From positions 1-56,969 of IMG/VR virus record IMGVR_UViG_3300048838_000199: a stretch of DNA of 56,969 nucleotides, one strand, 5' to 3'. The notes under the pieces are model-generated. The model was not told the DNA's origin and ran no database searches. It worked only from the letters and a program-made list of their open reading frames with translations. A program made the translations under genes and the position numbers. Below, piece by piece: positions 14,429 through 53,273 of the stretch. How positions within the stretch are numbered: position 1 is the stretch's first letter; every line of letters begins with the position of its first letter. Source of the DNA: a virus (lineage: Duplodnaviria; Caudoviricetes).

Positions 14429-15361
14429 TTATGCCCTCGTGTCCTGGTACTGCTCGTAAACGAAGCCAGGACCACACAGTGCCAGGGCCGCCTTCTGTGC
14501 GGCAGTGATGACCTTGGGGCTGCCAGTCGCCTCGGGCAGAAGGTTCTCGAACACGTAGCCGCCCACAACCATGCCGTAGCCGGTGCTTGCGTCGGTCAGA
14601 GATCCCTGCGTGGCGTCGCTGTAAATCAGGCCCGCACACTTGCTGCCGTCGCTCTGGGTCACGGTGAACGTGAACTCGTCGCCGGCAATGAAGTCGGTGG
14701 AACCGTCCGCGATCGTGAACGCGATTTGGTTGCTGAAGGCAGTGCCCACAACACCCTCGCCAATCACGACACCGTTGGGGTCCTCAACGATGAAGGTGCC
14801 CAGGTTGCTGGCCGGCTCGATGAACACGATTTTGTACACGCCAGCCTGCCCGCCGGCCACCACTGGGGTGCCTGCAGCTGTCAGGACGCCGTTGCCGGTG
14901 TTGCCTGCCTTGGCCGCCGATGCCGCCGTGTAGGTCGCCGTAATCAGCTTCAGGGGGATGACCTTGCCGCTGGACAGCTCGCCCATGATGGTCATGGCCG
15001 GGATGTACTTGGGGCCGAAGCCACCCACCAAGGCCGTGTCGCCGTTGCTGATGGCAGTTACCAGCGTGTCCACCAGGACGCCCGCTTGGTTCGCACCAGT
15101 TCCAGCGAAGGCTTGGGCCAGTCGCGCAAACTTGCCGCCGCCGAAGTCCAGCACGGTGCCCTTGGCCAGGGTCGTGCCCACGGGGACGTTCAGCGTCATG
15201 TCTGTGGCGTTTTGCAGTGCATTCGCACCGGCTGCAACGGTGACGGCTCCCTGTCGGTAGCTGTCCGGGACTAAATCCCAGTCCACCTGTCGGCCAGTCG
15301 ACTGCACCTTGTAGTTGCCGAAAAGGGCCGCAGGTCGCGTGCCCGTAAACGTGCTTCTCAT
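14429..15361 (-). CDS. Head decoration protein with inserted Ig-like domain
   Basis: KYIPAMTIMG..GKVIP and GGYVFENLLP; precedes the capsid gene. Confidence 0.75.
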   Translation of the reverse strand: MRSTFTGTRPAALFGNYKVQSTGRQVDWDLVPDSYRQGAVTVAAGANALQNATDMTLNVPVGTTLAKGTVLDFGGGKFARLAQAFAGTGANQAGVLVDTLVTAISNGDTALVGGFGPKYIPAMTIMGELSSGKVIPLKLITATYTAASAAKAGNTGNGVLTAAGTPVVAGGQAGVYKIVFIEPASNLGTFIVEDPNGVVIGEGVVGTAFSNQIAFTIADGSTDFIAGDEFTFTVTQSDGSKCAGLIYSDATQGSLTDASTGYGMVVGGYVFENLLPEATGSPKVITAAQKAALALCGPGFVYEQYQDTRA

Positions 15362-16484: not shown

Positions 16485-17126
16485 ATGGCCAAAGGTTTCG
16501 ACTGGGCCAGCCACCTCGATGGCGTGGCGCGTGCAGCACTTCGCCGGCTGGTGCCTTCCACCTCGGTCGTGGCCGCCACTGGCGCGTGGGGCCGACGTGA
16601 TGGCTGCCAGGGGTCGCAGCTCGTGCTGTACGTTTCCAGCCACCCAGCGCACCTGCCGATCGTGATGGACGAACTGAAGGCCGTGCTGCCGGCTGTCCAC
16701 TTCGCTGTCGACAATCCCGCGCCGCTGATGCGCGCCCACCTGTTGGATGCCCGGCACCTCTGGGGGAATGCCCCACTGCCACCGCCGCCGGTGGGTGACA
16801 CCTTCGCCGCAGAGTGGGCACCCGTGCAGGCCATCGTTCGGGACTCGATGCGCGCCACCGCGCCCGTCGCTGCCTTGGACGACTGGCAGACCTTGCGCGC
16901 TATCTGCACCATCGGCTGCGTGGAACTGCCCGGTGTTTTCGATGCGCCGCAGTGGGTGCAGGATCTGTACGTGGCCAGGAACATGGGGCTGCAGCAGCTG
17001 CCCGATGGCCTGCAGGTGTTTGCTGATGCCCTCGGCCAGCGAATCGCCGCCGATCTTCGCCACCTGGCCCAAGGCACACCGGCTGCGTCTGTGGCTGCCG
17101 CACTGCGTGCCTGGCTGCTCGGTTAG
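16485..17126 (+). CDS. Hypothetical protein (one of two + strand genes)
   Basis: Fills the gap between minus-strand genes; operator 16472-16482 just upstream; start uncertain. Confidence 0.6.
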   Translation: MAKGFDWASHLDGVARAALRRLVPSTSVVAATGAWGRRDGCQGSQLVLYVSSHPAHLPIVMDELKAVLPAVHFAVDNPAPLMRAHLLDARHLWGNAPLPPPPVGDTFAAEWAPVQAIVRDSMRATAPVAALDDWQTLRAICTIGCVELPGVFDAPQWVQDLYVARNMGLQQLPDGLQVFADALGQRIAADLRHLAQGTPAASVAAALRAWLLG

Positions 17127-29109: not shown

Positions 29110-29190
29110 GTCAGTGTTATACCACAGCGTGCTGCATGATGCAATACCAAAACGCAAAATAATCAGGGGCCGGTTCACCCAGCCCCTGCG
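29110..29190 (-). promoter_or_regulatory. Terminator plus class-I promoter/operator cassette
   Basis: CAGGGGC..GCCCCTG-ATTATTTT then TTTTGGTATTGCATCATGCAGCACGCTGTGGTATAAC. Confidence 0.85.
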
Positions 29191-44545: not shown

Positions 44546-45049
44546 TTACTCGGGGTCCTCGAAGTTTCGATCGGCCAGGGATTCCACGAACTCCACCAGC
44601 TCCTCGGTCGCAGCTTCGCGCGCAGCCAGGACTTCCTGGAAGTCTGCGCCGGTCTTGTCGCAGATGGCCTTTACAGCCGATCGGGGCACGGTCAGCGCGC
44701 GCTGCAGGGTATCACGCCCAAACGCACGATAGACCAGGACGCCCAGTTCGATCAGGCTGGTGTTCAGCTGCGGCAGCTTCGTGGCCTTCTGCCTGCCGAT
44801 GATGCCAAGGTCCTCGGCCACCTGGTCGCCCACCTGGTCGTCGGGAATGTCGGCCAGGGCCTCGATGAACGCCACCCACGCCTTGGCCGCTTCGTTGCGT
44901 TCCTCTAGGGCCAGCTCGGGATCCGCGCCGGTCTTCTTGCAGATGCTTCGCACCCAGTTCTCGGGTGGGGTCAGGGCACGCTGGACAGCGGCTTCGCCTT
45001 GGGTGACCAAGATGGCCAAGGCTAGGGTGATGATGGTGTGGGTCTTCAT
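44546..45049 (-). CDS. Protein with internal duplication
   Basis: QRALT..ICxKTGAD..LAD x2. Confidence 0.7.
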   Translation of the reverse strand: MKTHTIITLALAILVTQGEAAVQRALTPPENWVRSICKKTGADPELALEERNEAAKAWVAFIEALADIPDDQVGDQVAEDLGIIGRQKATKLPQLNTSLIELGVLVYRAFGRDTLQRALTVPRSAVKAICDKTGADFQEVLAAREAATEELVEFVESLADRNFEDPE

Positions 45050-45138
45050 TTCAGCCCGATTCTACCCACCGGCAGGTCTGGGGATGGCCAACCACAACCA
45101 GAACTCCGCCCCGTCGCTGCCGGTGGGTAGTCGCCGGG

Positions 45139-45561
45139 CTATTGTGCCGGCTTGTCGTCGTCCCTGCTGTCGATGTAGTGCCGCACGATGGCCAGGGATT
45201 CGCGCACGCGCTTGGGTATCGGGATGCCTAGAACTGCCGCGTGTTCGGTGATGCTCAGCAGCTCATTCACCAGCCACCAGACGGCAGCCAGGCCGCCGAA
45301 CGTGATGGTGACCTCGAACCCCAGCACCGAAAAGTTCACCGCCAGCAGCAGCCCATCGAACAGGCACGCCAGCAGCACCGTGAACGCCATCAGCATCTTG
45401 CGCATGATGCCTGCTCTGCTGATGCTGCTGGCCGCCTTCTTGTGTGCGAACGCTACAGCCAGCCCGAACAGGAAGTCGCTAAACGTGGCCGCAAGATACA
45501 AAACCATAAAGGGCAGCGTGATCTGCCAGTCAGTCCTAAGTGCTTCCTTGAATGTGTCCAT
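45139..45561 (-). CDS. Holin (phage holin 4 / toxin-secretion family)
   Basis: DFLFG..SSISRAGIMRK..NELLSITEH..LGIPIP. Confidence 0.9.
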   Translation of the reverse strand: MDTFKEALRTDWQITLPFMVLYLAATFSDFLFGLAVAFAHKKAASSISRAGIMRKMLMAFTVLLACLFDGLLLAVNFSVLGFEVTITFGGLAAVWWLVNELLSITEHAAVLGIPIPKRVRESLAIVRHYIDSRDDDKPAQ

Positions 45562-45613: not shown

Positions 45614-46390
45614 CTACCCTCCAGCAGCTGCAGACGTGGTGCCCTGTTCCTCGATCTTGCGCCGAATCACTTCCATGCCCATGATGTTGCGCGCCTCGGC
45701 CTGCCGATCTGCCGGCAGCGATGCCACGAACTTGTCGCGCTGTTCGCGCCTGGCCTTGGCTGCCTCGGCATGCACTTGCAGCTCTTGCTCGATCTGCTTG
45801 CGCTGCTCCAGGTCCAGCGATGGCTTGGGGGCTGTCGATGCCGGCAGTGCCTTTACTGCGCCATCTATGCGCGCCTCGATCGTGGCCGCCAGCTGCTTCA
45901 GCGTCGTGCCCTCGGGCAGGGGTGACGGTCGTCGTCGCAGGCCGTTGTCATACTCGCAGTCCAGCATGCTGGCCCAGTAGGGCAGGCCCTTGTTGATGGC
46001 GTTGCGCCGGCTGGTCACGCACACCCTGCCATCCTCGCAGACATACACCGGGTCGTTTATCACCCCTGGGGGGTTGCGCTTGTGCTTCAGCGCGCGCATG
46101 GCGTTCACCAGCTCGGCACTCGATGGGAACCACCGCAGTGATCTGCGCACCTCGTGGCCGTCGGCCATCACGTCGCCCAGCTCGATGCCCGCGTCGGCCA
46201 GGTCCATCACGTACAGGCCGACGGTTTCAGGGTCCTGCAAGTCGAACCCGCGCAGCCGCTCGGAAGGCATGGGCAGGCCGGCCTTCATCATCAGCAACAG
46301 CATGGCGTCGACGGCAGCCCACAGTTGTGGGTTCCTTGCATAAACGCCGTCGTACCATTCCTGCTGCACCTTCTCAGGCTTCTGACTCAT
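45614..46390 (-). CDS. Putative helicase loader / replication accessory protein
   Basis: Follows the initiator; WFPSSAEL motif. Confidence 0.5.
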   Translation of the reverse strand: MSQKPEKVQQEWYDGVYARNPQLWAAVDAMLLLMMKAGLPMPSERLRGFDLQDPETVGLYVMDLADAGIELGDVMADGHEVRRSLRWFPSSAELVNAMRALKHKRNPPGVINDPVYVCEDGRVCVTSRRNAINKGLPYWASMLDCEYDNGLRRRPSPLPEGTTLKQLAATIEARIDGAVKALPASTAPKPSLDLEQRKQIEQELQVHAEAAKARREQRDKFVASLPADRQAEARNIMGMEVIRRKIEEQGTTSAAAGG

Positions 46391-47318
46391 TACCAGCTCC
46401 CAGCGCGTGTGCCTGGCCGTTTTGGGCCGCAGCTGCTCGTATCATCTGCTGCCGTTGTTCCATGGTCTGCACCATAGTCTGCACGCCATGCCGCACGCTC
46501 TTACCATTTACAGACGCTGCAGAACCGGGTTCTGGTTTCCATTCGCGCGCCACGTCCTCGATGATGCCCTGCCACTGGCCGCCGGCAGCCCTCTGAACGG
46601 CATGCACGACAGCCGCCAGTGGGTACTTGTCCCACCAACCGCAGTTAGTCACGCGCAGCCCGTAGACGGTGGGCATGCCCTTGCGCTTGTCGGCCTTGCG
46701 CGCCTTCACCCACTCGATCATGGCTTCGCGAAGCTCGGGGCAGCTGGCATACGGTTCGCGCACCTCATAATCGCCATCCTTCACGTGCAGCGTAGGCCAG
46801 TCCTTTGCGAAGTCGGGCACAACAATCGCCGCAGATGCAGCCAGGTCGCCCTCTTGTCTGTCTGATGGATGTTCTGATGTATGTTCTGATGTATTGGGTG
46901 GCGTGGTGCCGCACCCCCCTGCGGCATCAGGCCGCACCCCCCTGCGGTCTGTCGTCGCACCCCCTGCGGCATGGTGCCGCACCCCCTCTGCCGGGGTGTG
47001 GCATGGTGCCGCACCCTGTTCGGTGGGTTGGTCTGGGCCGTCGGCCAGCTGCTTCAGCCGCTGCACGTCCAGCCTGTAGACGCTCGGGAACCCTATGCGC
47101 TCGGCCACCAGAACCAGCACGCGCTGCTCCTCCAGTTTCGCCATGATGCGCTGAACCGTGCGCCTGTCCAGGCAGCAGCGTGTTGCTATGGTGCCCTTCG
47201 CTGGCCGCACGTTGTTGCCTTCGTCGTCGGCACGATCGGCCAAGGCCAGCAGGATCAGCTTCTCGGCTGGGGTGTCGGTGGGAATGTCCCAGACCTGGCT
47301 CATAAGTCTGATGCTCAT
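46374..47318 (-). CDS. Replication initiator (N-terminal HTH)
   Basis: MSIRLMSQVW..EKLILLALADRADDEG..IATRC..RRTVQR. Confidence 0.85.
   Translation of the reverse strand: MSIRLMSQVWDIPTDTPAEKLILLALADRADDEGNNVRPAKGTIATRCCLDRRTVQRIMAKLEEQRVLVLVAERIGFPSVYRLDVQRLKQLADGPDQPTEQGAAPCHTPAEGVRHHAAGGATTDRRGVRPDAAGGCGTTPPNTSEHTSEHPSDRQEGDLAASAAIVVPDFAKDWPTLHVKDGDYEVREPYASCPELREAMIEWVKARKADKRKGMPTVYGLRVTNCGWWDKYPLAAVVHAVQRAAGGQWQGIIEDVAREWKPEPGSAASVNGKSVRHGVQTMVQTMEQRQQMIRAAAAQNGQAHALGAGNESEA
46861..47020. repeat. Iteron-like repeats, probable replication origin
   Basis: CGCACCC at 46910, 46933, 46956, 46978, 47010; TCTGATG x3 at 46861-46891. Confidence 0.7.
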
Positions 47319-47386
47319 GCCAGGGCCTCGGGTTGTTGAAGATGTCGCCGGCCTCGTGCCAGCTGGGTGTGTCGGGTAACTGCCAT
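47315..47386 (-). CDS. 23-aa leader peptide MAVTRHTQLARGRRHLQQPEALA coupled to the initiator
   Basis: TGA overlaps the initiator ATG (ATGA). Confidence 0.6.
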   Translation of the reverse strand: MAVTRHTQLARGRRHLQQPEALA

Positions 47387-47517
47387 TTTGTCGTTTTGTC
47401 TTGTGGTCGTTCCAGCCCTCACTGCGCGGACTTGCACGGCCTATGGCAGTTACCCGTCTAAGGTATGGCCAGCAGCCGCGCAGTGAAGTGTTCTCTGGTT
47501 CGTTGGGTTCTATTATA
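47373..47517 (-). ncRNA. Structured cis-regulatory leader (pseudoknot/antisense loop)
   Basis: Interleaved perfect inverted repeats of 11 and 14 bp downstream of TATAAT (47517-47512). Confidence 0.6.
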
Positions 47518-47548
47518 GACGTTTACGCCTGCCACAGCGTGCTGCCCA

Positions 47549-48130
47549 TTATAACCTGAAGGGTTTCACCTCCTGCGCTGGCACGATCTGCACGAACAGC
47601 CTGGCCCTGATGTTGTCAGGCTTGCCAGCTGCGCCGCCGGTGATGGCCACGTGTTCGGCCCTGGTCAGGTACCAGGTGCGCCAGCCCTTGATGCTGCGCA
47701 CGTCGTCGGTGCCATCCTTGGGTTCATCGCCCTTCTTGGCAGGTGGTGGCTTGGGCAGCACGCCGGTGTCGACCAGCACGTCGCCCACGCACTTCTGCAC
47801 GTTGTCCCAGTCGCGCGACTCGATGAAGCCACGGCCACCGAACACCCACAGATACACCACCACCGGGCCATCGAACTGGCCGGCCTGATACTTCTGCAGG
47901 ATGGCCTTGGCGGCCCGTTGTGCCCAGGCCGTGTATTCCTTGGTTGGGAACGTCTGCACCCACAGCCGCAGCTTGCCCTTGCACCTCGGGCACACCTGGC
48001 CAGGCTGCGACGGTGGTGCCGGCTGGCACTGCACGCGCTGCTGGTTCCGATGGTTGCCACTTGGCACCAGGTTGTACTTGTCGCCTTCCTTGCCGGCCAT
48101 CCAGCCGAATAGTTCCACCGCGTCCTTCAC
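47549..48130 (-). CDS. rusA: RusA family Holliday junction resolvase
   Basis: VPSGN, RDWDNVQK..D.L..DD. Confidence 0.75.
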   Translation of the reverse strand: MKDAVELFGWMAGKEGDKYNLVPSGNHRNQQRVQCQPAPPSQPGQVCPRCKGKLRLWVQTFPTKEYTAWAQRAAKAILQKYQAGQFDGPVVVYLWVFGGRGFIESRDWDNVQKCVGDVLVDTGVLPKPPPAKKGDEPKDGTDDVRSIKGWRTWYLTRAEHVAITGGAAGKPDNIRARLFVQIVPAQEVKPFRL

Positions 48131-48555
48131 GATCGTGTTGCCCTCGTGGTAAAGAACCCATCCAGGTCTGGCTCGTTCTGGTGAATCAGCCGCGCATAGT
48201 ACGCCCGGTGGTTGTTGGACAGCTTGAAGGGGAGGCCGTCGGTGTCGGTCGTGGTCAGGCTCTGATACCTCAGAACCTCCCACAGGGCAGCGATGCCATA
48301 CCGCTGCACGCCTCGGCTGCGCAGCTCCCTGGCCATGGCCACCAGCCGCCGGTACACCTGCGGGTTGGCCTCGTGGTAGACGGTGAACCGCTGCTGTAGT
48401 GTCTGCTTGGGCCGTTTCGGTCGCCGCTTGTTGCGCGCCTCGATGCCCTTGCGAATGTGCCGGGTGTGGCTCCGAACGACGACGACAGCAGCCTCTGGAA
48501 TCTGCCCAGGTGCTGGCTGCTGCGCTTCGCCACCGAACAGGCTGCCCTGTGTCAC
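48127..48555 (-). CDS. Hypothetical phage protein
   Basis: F..YHEANPQVY..FKLSNNHRAYYARL. Confidence 0.7.
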   Translation of the reverse strand: MTQGSLFGGEAQQPAPGQIPEAAVVVVRSHTRHIRKGIEARNKRRPKRPKQTLQQRFTVYHEANPQVYRRLVAMARELRSRGVQRYGIAALWEVLRYQSLTTTDTDGLPFKLSNNHRAYYARLIHQNEPDLDGFFTTRATRS

Positions 48556-49376: not shown

Positions 49377-49864
49377 TACTTTCCACTCCAAGGCAGGGCC
49401 AGGTTGCCAGGGGCTTGCCCCTTCTCGATGGCCTGCATGACCTGGGGTAGTGCAACCTCTGCCAGCGTCTGGCCTTGGCTGCCCACCACGATATCGCCCA
49501 CGAACGCCTGCTCCACAGTCTGGATGCCTTCCTCGATGGCCACCAGCCTGGCCTTAATCAGCGCGCCCAACGCACGCATGCGCCGGGCCATTTCCTGCTT
49601 CACCTTGTCGGCCTGCTGCTCTGCCGTCGCCGGCTTCCAGCTCGTGGCGTTCACCTTCACGCGCGTGAATCGCTCCTCGTTGGGGTCTGGCTTGGGCACG
49701 CTCAGCCGGTAGGCCACGCCGTTCACGACGAAGGCCACCACGAACTGGGCAGTGTCCTGCATGGTCATTTGCTGGGTGACACCGATGCCACCCAGCATGC
49801 CGCCGATCTCGGCCAACGTGCGCTCGATCGGCACCTCGGTGCCTTCTGCATACCGCCTGCTCAT
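49376..49864 (-). CDS. Conserved phage protein
   Basis: RYAEGTEV..IKARLVAIEEGI. Confidence 0.7.
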   Translation of the reverse strand: MSRRYAEGTEVPIERTLAEIGGMLGGIGVTQQMTMQDTAQFVVAFVVNGVAYRLSVPKPDPNEERFTRVKVNATSWKPATAEQQADKVKQEMARRMRALGALIKARLVAIEEGIQTVEQAFVGDIVVGSQGQTLAEVALPQVMQAIEKGQAPGNLALPWSGK

Positions 49865-50754
49865 TCGTCCCCCCAGTCGCCAAGGTTGGGCTGCTGGCCA
49901 GGCTCGTGCGCACTGGTTGCCGGCAGTGCCTGGACGGTCGCCGCCGGCAGTGCCTGCTGCGCGTCGTCCTCGGTCACCATCGTGCCGTCCACCACCTTCA
50001 TCGGTATGCCCAGCTTAAATGCCACTTGCGCCATCTTGTCTGCCCCTTCCAGGGCCTTCATCTTCTCGAAGTGGTCCATGGCCAGCGCGCGCAGTTCGTC
50101 GTTGCTCTGGTCCAGCCGAACGGCCAGCACGGGGTACGTCTTGCCGCCGCCCTTCCTGATGTCGATGGCCAGCCGCGCGCGAATGTGGGCACCCATCTGG
50201 GCCAGGGCCTCGATGCCGTCCATGATGGCCGGCACTTCCTGCGCTGCATAGAAGCTGCCCGTGGTCACTTGCCACAGGCCGACGTCGGGCAGGTTGGGAA
50301 TGCGCACGAACAGCCGGCACGACAGGCTGCAGACGTTGCTGCCCTTCAGTTTGGCCTTGGCCGCCCTCTCGATCGGGTCACGTGGGCAGACGCAGGGGCC
50401 GCCACGTTCCACGCCTTCCACGATCGTGCAGCCGTCACACCGTCGCACGCACTGCTTGCTGCCCTTGCCGCCCACCTGCGCCCACAGCTCGTACTGGGTG
50501 CTGGCTGCTACGTTGCTTATCTCGATCGGCAGTTCGTTCGTCTTGGTGATGATCTGCCACGCCTGGCTGCCACCTGGCCACGGCACCACCTGGCCGCCGA
50601 ATATCTGGGCAGCTCGGTCCAGCGCGCGCTTGTCGTTGCTGGTCAGCCTGAACGTGGCCAGCCGCTTGCCGACGCTGTTGGGGCCGGCAGACTGTTCGCC
50701 CAGCCTGATGATGCCGCACCGCTTCATCTTGGCCTGAATGTCTAGGACTCTCAC
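49861..50754 (-). CDS. phiC31 gp3-like (recombination directionality factor-like) protein
   Basis: GIIRLG..FRLTS..FGG..W..RRCDG..C.C..GLWQVTTGSFYAA. Confidence 0.7.
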   Translation of the reverse strand: MRVLDIQAKMKRCGIIRLGEQSAGPNSVGKRLATFRLTSNDKRALDRAAQIFGGQVVPWPGGSQAWQIITKTNELPIEISNVAASTQYELWAQVGGKGSKQCVRRCDGCTIVEGVERGGPCVCPRDPIERAAKAKLKGSNVCSLSCRLFVRIPNLPDVGLWQVTTGSFYAAQEVPAIMDGIEALAQMGAHIRARLAIDIRKGGGKTYPVLAVRLDQSNDELRALAMDHFEKMKALEGADKMAQVAFKLGIPMKVVDGTMVTEDDAQQALPAATVQALPATSAHEPGQQPNLGDWGDE

Positions 50755-52538: not shown

Positions 52539-53273
52539 ATGAACCAAGAACTGTACAAGCTCGAAAACACTGTCCGCAAGGCAGAATCGGCTTGGGATAG
52601 GCAGATGAAACGAGACGGGCACCTAAAGAAGGAATCCCGCGACATTTCCACCTGCACCCCGGCCACCATGTCACCCACCGCGCGCGCTTTCTATCACGAA
52701 TACACCGCCGCCAAGACGAAGCTGGACGACGAAGCCAACCGCACCAACCTGTTCGGAGGCAGTCCTGCCGCCCCGAACGACGGCCTGGACGACGACGACA
52801 CCGACGACGACGAACAGCAGCCCCGTGGTCGCAGGGGCAAGGGCAAGGCCAGCCACCTCCAGGTGGTCACGCCGGCAGCAACACCCGAAAACGTGCAGAC
52901 GCCCGACGGCATGCCCGTGAAGGTCGTGGCACCCCAGCTGCTCGATGACTGGCGCGCCCTGTGCGCTGCCGAGTCGCTGGGCAAAAAGAACCCCACCGCC
53001 AAGGTGATCGTGCTGGAAGGTGGCACCTGGGTCTGCACCCAGGTCGGTGAAGGCTTCGCTGTGCTTACCCGCTGCGTCACCGAACACGAATACGAAGGTG
53101 AACGCCACGACAGCATGGAAGGCAGGGACCCCGACGACACCGCCGGCTTGGTGTTCCGCTCTGGCCCTGGTCGTTCGCCGCAGTATGTCCTGATGAACTC
53201 GGGGCAATCTGTCGCTGCTGTTGCTGGGGACCCTCTGCAGAACGTTCAGCTGCAGACGGGCACCGACGAATAA
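52539..53273 (+). CDS. Hypothetical protein (divergent, + strand)
   Basis: Clean ORF; TAGGAT upstream; terminator downstream. Confidence 0.8.
   Translation: MNQELYKLENTVRKAESAWDRQMKRDGHLKKESRDISTCTPATMSPTARAFYHEYTAAKTKLDDEANRTNLFGGSPAAPNDGLDDDDTDDDEQQPRGRRGKGKASHLQVVTPAATPENVQTPDGMPVKVVAPQLLDDWRALCAAESLGKKNPTAKVIVLEGGTWVCTQVGEGFAVLTRCVTEHEYEGERHDSMEGRDPDDTAGLVFRSGPGRSPQYVLMNSGQSVAAVAGDPLQNVQLQTGTDE

What the first reader, a model, noticed from the sequence alone, without database searches (positions are those of the whole stretch)
47315..47517. Pseudoknot/antisense leader and coupled leader peptide upstream of the replication initiator
Seen in the sequence (minus-strand transcript after TATAAT at 47517-47512): an 11-bp perfect stem (47476-47486 with 47419-47429), extended by GGCC pairing, presents the loop sequence CGGGUAACUGCCAU (47456-47443). 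This is the exact 14-nt complement of AUGGCAGUUACCCG (47386-47373), the start of an unannotated 23-codon ORF whose UGA overlaps the initiator AUG. The repeats interleave (B-A-B'-A'), so they form a pseudoknot or alternative folds. Known analogues: repY/repZ of ColIb-P9, tap/repA of R1, and the C4/CI RNAs of P1/P4. Inference: an RNA switch gates initiator translation, possibly setting copy number or a carrier state in a phage with no visible integrase.
Basis: partly seen in the sequence, partly recalled or inferred. Interest (0 to 1): 0.85.

Follow-up and report, generated by a model that had tools for sequence, protein, structure and literature searches.

The report
Structured leader before phage replication initiator
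The 230-base gap in front of this phage's lambda-O-like replication initiator gene holds a very stable RNA hairpin whose loop is a perfect 14-base match to the start of a tiny upstream reading frame; this is unlikely to be chance and probably controls initiator output, but no related sequence could be fetched to test it.

Summary
A perfect 14-nt inverted repeat (47456-47443 / 47386-47373) interleaves with a perfect 11-nt one (47486-47476 / 47429-47419). A 23-codon ORF starts at the first base of the distal 14-mer and ends in ATGA on the initiator's ATG (47318).

Perfect 14-nt spaced inverted repeats are rare: 2 in the genome against a mean of 0.08 in 100 shuffles. The 11-nt stem is the core of a 22-bp hairpin (-40.3 kcal/mol, z -4.57, 0 of 200 shuffles). 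It is more stable in the mRNA sense than in the antisense.

The downstream gene is a lambda-O-like initiator with its origin iterons inside the gene, so the leader is not the origin.

My best reading (about 0.4) is a repressive leader. The hairpin loop masks the otherwise very accessible start of the small ORF, in cis as a pseudoknot or in trans like P1 c4.

It is not a member of the repY/repZ, tap/repA or C4 families: defining features were tested and not met, and Rfam gave no hit. In three related populations similarity stops just upstream of the leader.

The parts
47549..48130 (-). Upstream gene (193 aa, weak RusA-like); its stop TAA 47551-47549 lies inside a first TATAAT (47553-47548)
   Evidence: Codon-likelihood gene call. 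Pfam RusA E 2.5e-4, below the curated cut-off. The TATAAT position is kept in a relative's loose end, but coding (Leu-stop) explains that (read by hand).
47532..47545 (-). GCAGCACGCTGTGG, the same 14-mer that fills the spacer of the promoter-like site at 29121; a half copy of the phage's dispersed palindrome
   Evidence: Listing of all TATAAY sites with their upstream sequence.
47512..47517 (-). TATAAT, candidate -10 of a promoter for the replication genes; no TTGCAT-type -35
   Evidence: TATAAT occurs 8 times on the minus strand against 1.59 expected, and 0 times on the plus strand. The sigma-70 scan did not call it.
47417..47488 (-). Hairpin P1: 22 bp with three 1-nt bulges on the 3' side. 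The core is the perfect 11-bp stem 47486-47476/47429-47419, followed by GGCC 47470-47467/47441-47438. The apical loop is 25 nt (47466-47442).
   Evidence: Fold -40.3 kcal/mol, z -4.57, 0 of 200 shuffles. Pair probabilities 0.98-1.0. Plus-strand fold only -34.3, z -2.66.
47443..47456 (-). Loop 14-mer A, CGGGUAACUGCCAU
   Evidence: I10. Cost to open 3.55 kcal/mol.
47386..47411 (-). A/C-rich tandem 8-mers (CGACAAAA-like, 3.2 copies) directly upstream of the small ORF's ATG; predicted unpaired
   Evidence: Tandem Repeats Finder. Mean unpaired probability 0.95 for -13..-5.
47373..47386 (-). Distal 14-mer A', AUGGCAGUUACCCG, exact complement of A; its first three bases are the small ORF's AUG
   Evidence: Duplex -25.1 kcal/mol.
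47315..47386 (-). 23-codon upstream ORF whose TGA overlaps the initiator ATG (ATGA)
   Evidence: Codon score -0.108 per codon against a gene mean of 0.41 and minimum of 0.064. No SD. Both changes in a 98.7% variant are non-synonymous.
47326..47329 (-). GAGG Shine-Dalgarno of the initiator, 7 nt before the ATG at 47318; can pair with CUUC 47341-47338
   Evidence: Accessibility of the initiator start region 0.27, tenth lowest of 73 genes.
46374..47318 (-). Replication initiator, lambda-O-like (N-terminal HTH_36)
   Evidence: Pfam HTH_36 5.2e-10. PHROG 1032/391 replication initiation 5e-21 and 6.7e-16. Of the 11 homologues aligned, 9 begin MS[IV]; P0008 begins at the later Met and P0011 is longer.
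46861..47016 (.). Origin-like array inside the initiator gene: five about 20-nt iterons (TGCGGCATGGTGCCGCACCC, 46897-47016, spacing 22-32 nt) followed by an AT-rich 12-mer repeated 2.8 times (46861-46894)
   Evidence: the repeat finder D1/D2/D6. Tandem Repeats Finder.

Best explanation
The gap is a structured mRNA leader of the replication module. Transcripts arrive from the lone TATAAT at 47517 or by read-through from the upstream genes. They first fold the 22-bp hairpin P1, which displays CGGGUAACUGCCAU in its 25-nt loop. About 60 nt downstream, an unstructured A/C-rich tract leads into AUGGCAGUUACCCG, the start of a 23-codon ORF that ends in AUGA on the initiator's AUG. Pairing of the loop with this sequence hides the small ORF's start codon. 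The pairing could occur within one molecule as an H-type pseudoknot, or between molecules if the hairpin survives as a stable fragment, as in P1 c4. With the small ORF silent, no ribosome arrives to open the moderately structured initiator start site, so less initiator is made. The net effect is negative control of initiator synthesis that travels with the replicon-specificity module. Shown: the sequence elements, their non-randomness, their energetics and the identity of the gene. Inferred: transcription start, translation of the small ORF, coupling, formation of the long-range helix, and any effect on replication.
For: 1. The 14-nt perfect repeat is not chance: 2 in the genome against 0.08 per shuffle, 0 of 100 shuffles reach 2.
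2. P1 folds at -40.3 kcal/mol, z -4.57, 0 of 200 shuffles. The opposite strand gives -34.3, z -2.66. The extension beyond the 11-bp core uses G-U pairs that exist only in the mRNA sense, which favours an RNA-level role.
3. The 14-mer A' begins exactly at the A of the ATG of the only ATG-started frame that ends in ATGA on the initiator start.
4. Without the loop pairing, the small ORF's start region is among the most open in the genome: unpaired probability 0.82, exceeded by 1 of 73 gene starts. The initiator's own start region scores 0.27, tenth lowest of 73, with its AUG at 0.09.
5. The loop-target duplex is -25.1 kcal/mol, opening both sites costs 7.35, so the net is -17.75 before a pseudoknot penalty. 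A nested alternative that breaks P1 is 4.9 kcal/mol worse than the minimum-energy fold, so the pairing would form as a pseudoknot or in trans.
6. The 14-mer is not a dispersed operator. Only the two leader copies and one copy inside a coding region were found.
7. The origin iterons lie inside the initiator gene, so the leader repeats are not the origin.
8. In a genome where many genes follow a -10 hexamer by 6-9 nt (leaderless style), this gene has a leader of about 190 nt.
Against: - No comparative support. Relatives' DNA could not be fetched (closed; searches gave nothing usable).
- In three related populations (X5, X7 and a divergent X6 contig) similarity stops at 47568, 47574 and 47583. 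The leader is therefore not alignable there at 80% or more.
- The 98.7% variant X1 has 2 changes in the leader, none in a stem. With 24 changes in 1901 nt this is uninformative.
- The small ORF lacks an SD, scores below every accepted gene in codon usage, has no homologue among called proteins, and both X1 changes are non-synonymous (H6Y, R14Q).
- The initiator has its own GAGG and ATG, so it may be translated independently.
- Rfam gave 0 hits at gathering thresholds and only an E = 3 chance hit in the permissive scan.
- The TATAAT at 47517 has no -35 of the phage's own promoter type.
- P1's raw energy is not among the 15 most stable 80-nt windows of this GC-rich genome.
- Perfect Watson-Crick arms are equally compatible with a DNA-level role.
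Confidence: 0.4

Rival explanations
1. P1 is a double-strand-specific (RNase III-type) processing or stability hairpin. It separates the upstream message from the replication-gene message. The 14-nt complement is secondary or irrelevant.
For: P1 is a rod of about 22 bp, roughly two helical turns, which is the size RNase III needs (recalled). A second intergenic rod of about 22 bp built on the genome's only other perfect 14-nt repeat fills the whole gap after the holin gene (45141-45052, -51.6 kcal/mol, z -3.42). Long intergenic hairpins therefore recur in this phage. P1 has no U-tract, so it is not an intrinsic terminator.
Against: It does not explain why the loop carries an exact 14-nt complement of a site 56 nt downstream that starts at an ATG. 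A repeat of that length is expected 0.08 times per genome. Three bulges interrupt the rod. The host and its RNases are unknown.
Confidence: 0.2
2. The repeats act as DNA. The two 14-bp arms, with or without the 11-bp arms, are inverted binding sites for a phage or host protein that blocks or loops the promoter-proximal DNA of the replication genes, or they extrude as a cruciform.
For: Both repeats are perfect Watson-Crick with sharp ends, as expected for protein sites. The gap also holds a half copy of the phage's dispersed promoter palindrome. The leader is exchanged together with the initiator's DNA-binding domain and iterons in relatives, as a specificity determinant would be.
Against: The 14-mer occurs nowhere else in an intergenic region. 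It does not resemble the iterons (compared by eye). The arms lie about 50 and 120 nt downstream of the candidate -10, not over it. Centre-to-centre spacing is 70 bp, not a whole number of helical turns. The hairpin's extension by G-U pairs and the 6 kcal/mol strand asymmetry point to RNA.
Confidence: 0.15
3. Plasmid-style countertranscript control as in ColIb-P9 or R1. An antisense RNA made from the plus strand across the leader binds the P1 loop and competes with pseudoknot formation.
For: On the plus strand the hairpin is still stable (-34.3 kcal/mol) and is followed by a moderately T-rich stretch. The general layout (hairpin, leader ORF, overlapping rep start) resembles those plasmids (PMC4705826 and PMC8053102, passages).
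Against: The consensus scan found no promoter-like site on the plus strand between 47300 and 47520. No TANNNT with a plausible -35 was seen by eye. There is no TATAAT on the plus strand anywhere in the genome. Almost all transcription units run on the minus strand.
Confidence: 0.05
4. There is no function. The repeats are a by-product of the mosaic junction at the start of the replication module or of a recent local duplication-inversion, and the small ORF is a chance open frame in GC-rich DNA.
For: Single-genome evidence only. The leader lies in a segment that is replaced in relatives. Short open frames are common at 64.6% G+C. The small ORF shows no coding signal. A third, 13-of-14 copy sits inside a structural gene (15051-15064), so the 14-mer may simply recur.
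Against: Two independent perfect repeats interleaved in one 230-nt gap is hard to get by chance: a 14-mer is expected 0.08 times per genome, and an 11-mer falling in this gap about 0.017 times (4.09 x 230/56969). The hairpin z-score is -4.57. The boundary of the repeat coincides exactly with the ATG.
Confidence: 0.15

Closest known systems
P1/P7 c4 RNA with icd-ant (also P4 CI RNA, N15 CA RNA)
   Same: The regulator is encoded on the same strand and upstream of its target in the same transcript. A hairpin presents a single-stranded sequence complementary to the translation start region of a small ORF that overlaps the main gene. [quoted passage not shown] The icd-ant coupling, the a2/b2 target sites, RNase P processing and the P4 and N15 cases are recalled, not read here.
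   Different: No match to any Rfam family, C4 included. There is one long hairpin with one 14-nt contact rather than two short contacts. No tRNA-like end (CCA directly after the stem) was seen by eye. The controlled gene is a lambda-O-like replication initiator, not an antirepressor. Processing is unknown.
ColIb-P9 repY/repZ and IncB repBA pseudoknot switch
   Same: Both have a leader ORF ending at or over the rep start. Both have a stem-loop about 100 nt upstream whose loop pairs with a distal sequence to form a pseudoknot. The controlled gene is a replication initiator (PMC4705826, passages).
   Different: [quoted passage not shown] It activates a weak GUG start masked by structure and is countered by the antisense Inc RNA. 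Here the pairing is 14 nt over the leader ORF's own AUG, 55-68 nt before the initiator start, and should repress. The initiator has AUG plus GAGG. No antisense promoter was found. The initiator family is different (HTH_36, O-like).
R1 tap/repA with CopA
   Same: A leader peptide is translationally coupled to the initiator, and control works by blocking leader-peptide translation (PMC8053102, passage).
   Different: In R1 the blocker is a counter-transcribed antisense RNA. Here the only complement found lies on the same strand, in a hairpin loop.
Lambda O / ori-lambda replication module
   Same: An initiator with an N-terminal DNA-binding domain, iterons with internal dyad symmetry and an AT-rich stretch inside its own gene, and an overlapping downstream gene. 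The lambda layout itself is recalled.
   Different: To my knowledge (recalled), lambda has no structured leader with a coupled small ORF in front of O.

Membership tests
IncI-alpha/IncB pseudoknot-activated rep control (repY/repZ, repBA) | Leader ORF whose end overlaps or abuts the rep start | tested here: met
   ATGA overlap at 47318-47315.
IncI-alpha/IncB pseudoknot-activated rep control (repY/repZ, repBA) | [quoted passage not shown] | tested here: not met
   The target is the leader ORF's AUG at 47386-47373, not the region next to GAGG 47329-47326. The initiator has AUG and GAGG at 7 nt. The feature is as described in PMC4705826 (passages).
IncI-alpha/IncB pseudoknot-activated rep control (repY/repZ, repBA) | Counter-transcribed antisense Inc RNA with its own promoter about 100 bp upstream of rep | tested here: not met
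   No plus-strand promoter-like site in 47300-47520, and none seen by eye. A consensus scan cannot exclude an unusual promoter.
R1 (IncFII) CopA/tap/repA | Antisense RNA from the opposite strand blocks tap translation | tested here: not met
   Same as above. A leader ORF is present, but no antisense gene was found.
C4 antisense RNA family (P1/P7 c4; Rfam) | Match to the Rfam covariance model | tested here: not met
   0 matches at gathering scores over the whole genome. The permissive scan of 47200-47650 gave only Atu_At1 at E = 3.
C4 antisense RNA family (P1/P7 c4; Rfam) | Same-strand upstream hairpin RNA complementary to the start region of a small ORF coupled to the regulated gene | tested here: met
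   Loop 47456-47443 is the exact complement of 47386-47373. The ORF overlaps the initiator ATG. The definition of this feature is recalled.
C4 antisense RNA family (P1/P7 c4; Rfam) | Processing of the RNA out of the precursor (RNase P, tRNA-like end) | not testable with these tools
   No raw RNA reads were available. There is no CCA directly 3' of the stem by eye. The feature is recalled.
Lambda-O-like replication initiator with internal origin | N-terminal HTH DNA-binding domain and family match | tested here: met
   Pfam HTH_36 5.2e-10. PHROG replication initiation families 5e-21 to 6.6e-4, 10 families.
Lambda-O-like replication initiator with internal origin | Iterons plus an AT-rich region inside the initiator gene | tested here: met
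   Five copies of a 20-nt unit at 46897-47016, and a 12-mer repeated 2.8 times at 46861-46894.
Intrinsic terminator or attenuator | G+C-rich hairpin followed directly by a U-tract | tested here: not met
   P1 is followed by GGGCUGGAACGACC. The terminator scan found none in the gap.

The most novel reading that the evidence does not exclude
The hairpin is a new kind of same-strand antisense regulator, unrelated in sequence to c4 or CI. It is cut from or outlives the leader and acts in trans on the start codon of a coupling ORF to throttle a lambda-O-like initiator. It would then be a replicon-specific incompatibility or copy-control determinant that is swapped together with the initiator's DNA-binding domain and iterons. 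That would bring plasmid-style RNA copy control to a phage theta replicon that shows no integrase, partition or repressor gene.
Probability: 0.15. Interest if true: 0.7.

Novelty: new variant of a known kind. Interest (0 to 1): 0.45.

Why it matters
RNA leaders that set initiator levels are textbook for IncF, IncI and IncB plasmids, and processed same-strand antisense RNAs are known for phage antirepressors. I found no description of either principle applied to a lambda-O-type phage initiator. That rests on search 74 (15 papers held at least 4 of the 5 terms; 12 were listed, and I saw only titles and abstract starts) and on searches. If the pairing works as proposed, it would show how a phage limits or times theta-type initiation. 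It could also explain why the leader travels with the specificity half of the replication module. The design is small enough (about 190 nt) to test directly with reporter fusions. If it turns out to be a processing hairpin or a DNA site, it is ordinary.

Tried and rejected
Searches for relatives that gave nothing:
- Megablast, blastn and tblastn against phage and plasmid records found no match.
- Scans of viral contigs with the initiator, its alignment, a back-translated motif, both neighbouring proteins and the repeat pattern found no relative.
- The genome-contig scan found none. The pattern scan gave 4 loci, L002-L005, all chance by tblastn.
- The first metagenome-contig scan found none. 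The second gave only L001, an unrelated HTH_36 initiator that shares 11 N-terminal residues and has a 38-nt gap with no leader.
- The scan's earlier findings held no look-alike windows.

Protein homologues exist: 14, at 31-98% identity, several on 55-57 kb contigs.

RNA evidence: no RNA holder was listed for the stretch. One run labelled RNA-Seq, which the tool judged probably DNA, holds a 213-nt contig identical to 47250-47461. Contigs cannot show ends or expression, so I draw nothing from it.

Ideas rejected:
- Origin of replication in the leader. The iterons are inside the gene.
- Intrinsic terminator. There is no U-tract.
- Dispersed operator. The 14-mer is not repeated in other gaps.
- Rho-loading tract. 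The C-over-G excess of 47418-47341 is only at the 85th percentile.
- Leaderless start for the small ORF. There is no T, and so no -10, in the 21 nt before its ATG.
- A protein gene in the gap. All six small frames score negative.
- Initiator binding in the leader. There is no iteron-like core, by eye.

Papers: PMC1170848, PMC139621, PMC312442 and PMC196329 are not held. Details of P1 c4/icd/ant, P4 CI and N15 CA are therefore recalled. Supplementary files were not consulted.
Full report
WHAT IS THERE. The window is a whole virus record of 56,969 bases. It has 64.6% G+C, and almost every gene lies on the minus strand. Read on the minus strand, the 230-nt gap between a 193-aa gene (47549-48130, weakly RusA-like) and a 314-aa gene (46374-47318) contains, in order:
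- a TATAAT that overlaps the upstream stop codon (47553-47548);
- the 14-mer GCAGCACGCTGTGG (47545-47532);
- a second TATAAT (47517-47512);
- stem arm B (47486-47476);
- GGCC (47470-47467);
- the 14-mer A (47456-47443);
- GGCC (47441-47438);
- stem arm B' (47429-47419);
- an A/C-rich run of three 8-mers (47411-47386);
- the 14-mer A' (47386-47373), whose first three bases are an ATG;
- an open frame of 23 codons from that ATG;
- GAGG (47329-47326);
- ATGA (47318-47315), in which the small frame's TGA overlaps the large gene's ATG.
The repeat finder finds both repeats independently as I10 and I25.

IS IT MORE THAN CHANCE. I counted perfect inverted repeats with spacers of 3-150 nt in the genome and in 100 dinucleotide-preserving shuffles of it.
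- For arms of 14 nt or more the genome has 2. The shuffles average 0.08, the maximum is 1, and 0 of 100 reach 2.
- For arms of 11 nt or more the genome has 6 against 4.09, and 23 of 100 shuffles reach 6.
The 14-mer pair is therefore significant on its own and the 11-mer pair is not. However, the 11-mer falls in the same 230-nt gap (about 0.017 expected there). It is also only the core of a longer hairpin: 22 base pairs with three one-base bulges, -40.3 kcal/mol, z -4.57, with 0 of 200 shuffles folding as well. The same DNA read on the other strand folds 6 kcal/mol less well (z -2.66), because the extension uses G-U pairs. This is modest evidence that the RNA of the gene-sense strand is what matters. 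In raw energy the hairpin is not among the 15 most stable 80-nt windows of this GC-rich genome. It stands out only after correcting for composition.

WHAT THE NEIGHBOURS ARE. The 314-aa protein matches Pfam HTH_36 (5.2e-10) and ten PHROG families annotated as replication initiation or O-like (best 5e-21). Inside its gene, in the part that encodes the low-complexity linker, lie five copies of a 20-nt unit with internal dyad symmetry (46897-47016, spaced 22-32 nt). Next to them is an AT-rich 12-mer repeated 2.8 times (46861-46894). This is the lambda arrangement of an origin inside the O gene (the lambda layout is recalled). The leader repeats are therefore not the origin, and by eye they do not resemble the iterons. 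Of the 11 homologues aligned, 9 begin MS[IV], one begins at the later Met and one is longer, which fixes the initiator start at 47318.

The phage has a family of promoter-like sites, TTGCAT, then a CRTGCWGCAYG-type palindrome, then TATAAY. TATAAT occurs 8 times on the minus strand against 1.59 expected, and never on the plus strand. Many genes start 6-9 nt after such a hexamer, in leaderless style. Against that background, a leader of about 190 nt before the initiator is unusual for this genome. The TATAAT at 47517 lacks the family's -35 element, and the generic promoter scan does not call it.

ENERGETICS OF THE LONG-RANGE PAIRING.
- In nested folding, P1 forms with pair probabilities of 0.98-1.0 and A:A' is essentially absent at 0.002.
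- Forcing A:A' in a nested fold breaks P1 and costs 4.9 kcal/mol (-62.0 against -66.9).
- A lies in the loop of P1, so both helices can coexist as an H-type pseudoknot, or A' can be bound in trans.
- The duplex is worth -25.1 kcal/mol and opening both sites costs 7.35, so the net is -17.75 before any pseudoknot penalty.
- Loop lengths are 10 nt before A, 1 nt after it, and 32 nt between B' and A'. They look compatible with such a knot. This is my own geometric judgement, not a computation.

WHAT THE PAIRING WOULD DO. Without it, the start region of the small ORF is one of the most open in the genome. Its mean unpaired probability is 0.82, and only 1 of 73 gene starts is higher. The initiator's own start region is on the closed side at 0.27, tenth lowest of 73, with its AUG at 0.09. 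The simplest reading is a repressive device. The loop hides the small ORF's AUG, no ribosome runs into the initiator start, and initiator synthesis falls. This is the logic of P1 c4 acting on icd-ant (c4 as a trans-acting repressor of Ant synthesis: PMC8546580, passage; the rest recalled). It is the opposite sign to ColIb-P9. There a 4-nt loop pairing next to the rep SD activates a weak GUG start, and an antisense Inc RNA competes with it (PMC4705826, passages).

EVIDENCE AGAINST.
- The small ORF has no Shine-Dalgarno sequence.
- Its codon score is -0.108 per codon, below all accepted genes (mean 0.41, minimum 0.064).
- A search with the 40-codon version found no protein, not even from the near-identical variants.
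- The initiator has a good GAGG and ATG of its own.
- Rfam gives nothing.
- No antisense promoter is visible.
- Above all, there is no comparative evidence.

WHAT THE READ-LAYING SHOWED. The only look at other populations came from laying public contigs on 46300-48200.
- A 98.7% variant (X1, 24 differences in 1901 nt, all listed) has two changes in the leader, at 47346 and 47371. Both lie outside the four arms, and both are non-synonymous in the small ORF (R14Q and H6Y, worked out by hand). With about 0.6 changes expected in the 50 arm bases, their absence there says nothing.
- In X5 and X7 the upstream gene is 96-98% identical, but similarity stops at 47568 and 47574. A more distant X6 contig stops at 47583.
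- In X5 similarity returns only for 24 nt at 47209-47232 and again from 46821 downward.
The leader, the initiator's DNA-binding domain and the iterons are thus replaced together, while the C-terminal domain is shared. This is the classic lambdoid specificity module (recalled), and the leader belongs to it. That fits a replicon-specific regulator, but it equally fits a variable junction with no function.

RIVALS.
- A processing or stability hairpin of the RNase III type is plausible. The genome's other perfect 14-nt repeat forms a second rod of about 22 bp that fills the whole gap after the holin gene (45141-45052).
- A DNA-level role for the perfect repeats cannot be excluded. The 14-mer is not reused in other gaps, and the strand asymmetry argues for RNA.
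- A plasmid-like countertranscript has no support.
- Chance or a junction scar keeps some weight, because everything rests on one sequence.

LIFESTYLE REMARK. Six-frame searches found no Phage_integrase, Resolvase, ParB_N or HTH_3 match at E <= 0.1, which agrees with 'no visible integrase'. The record has no terminal repeats and CheckV rates it 67% complete. On the other hand, several homologue-bearing contigs are 55-57 kb, about this length. Nothing here speaks for or against a carrier state.

VERDICT. The best reading is a repressive, c4-like or pseudoknot leader of a lambda-O-like initiator (0.4). It is not a member of any named family. It would be a new variant of a known kind of control, of moderate interest, and directly testable.

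Noticed in passing
window 46861-47016: A lambda-like origin lies inside the initiator gene. It has five about 20-nt iterons with internal dyad symmetry (TGCGGCATGGTGCCGCACCC) followed by an AT-rich 12-mer repeated 2.8 times. The iterons also show up as repeated peptides in the protein's linker, in this phage and in its homologues.
   Followed up: partly
window 45052-45141: The genome's only other perfect 14-nt inverted repeat (45062-45075/45117-45130) forms a hairpin of about 22 bp (-51.6 kcal/mol, z -3.42). It runs from the holin gene's stop codon to 2 nt before the next ATG. Its 3' arm contains the TAGAAT that looks like the -10 of the leaderless gene at 45049.
   Followed up: partly
window 15051-15064 (-): A third copy of the loop 14-mer with one mismatch (CTGGTAACTGCCAT) lies in frame (LVTAI) inside the 310-aa gene 14429-15361. 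By my own estimate about 0.02 such near-copies are expected. It could pair with A', or it may be coincidence.
   Followed up: partly
window 47568-47583 and 46821: Mosaic boundaries in related wastewater and river populations. Similarity to three relatives stops within 16 nt of each other, just before the end of the upstream gene. In one relative it resumes in the initiator's C-terminal half. The leader, the DNA-binding domain and the iterons are exchanged as one block.
   Followed up: partly
window, 13 sites on the minus strand (e.g. 20494, 26567, 29121, 31308): A promoter-like family: TTGCAT, a CRTGCWGCAYG-type palindrome, then TATAAY, followed after 6-9 nt by a start codon. TATAAT occurs 8 times on the minus strand (1.59 expected) and 0 times on the plus strand.
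   Followed up: partly
window 49861-50754 (-): A Gp3-like 'recombination directionality factor-like' protein (PF18897, 8.4e-21) sits in a genome where no integrase of either kind was found in six frames.
   Followed up: no
window 47250-47461: A run labelled metagenomic RNA-Seq holds a 213-nt contig identical to exactly this stretch, from inside the hairpin loop to 68 nt into the initiator gene. The tool judges the run probably DNA, so no inference is drawn.
   Followed up: no
window 52539-53273 (+): This is one of only two plus-strand genes accepted by the codon model (244 aa; the other is a weak 167-aa call at 16623-17126). It has no Pfam match.
   Followed up: no
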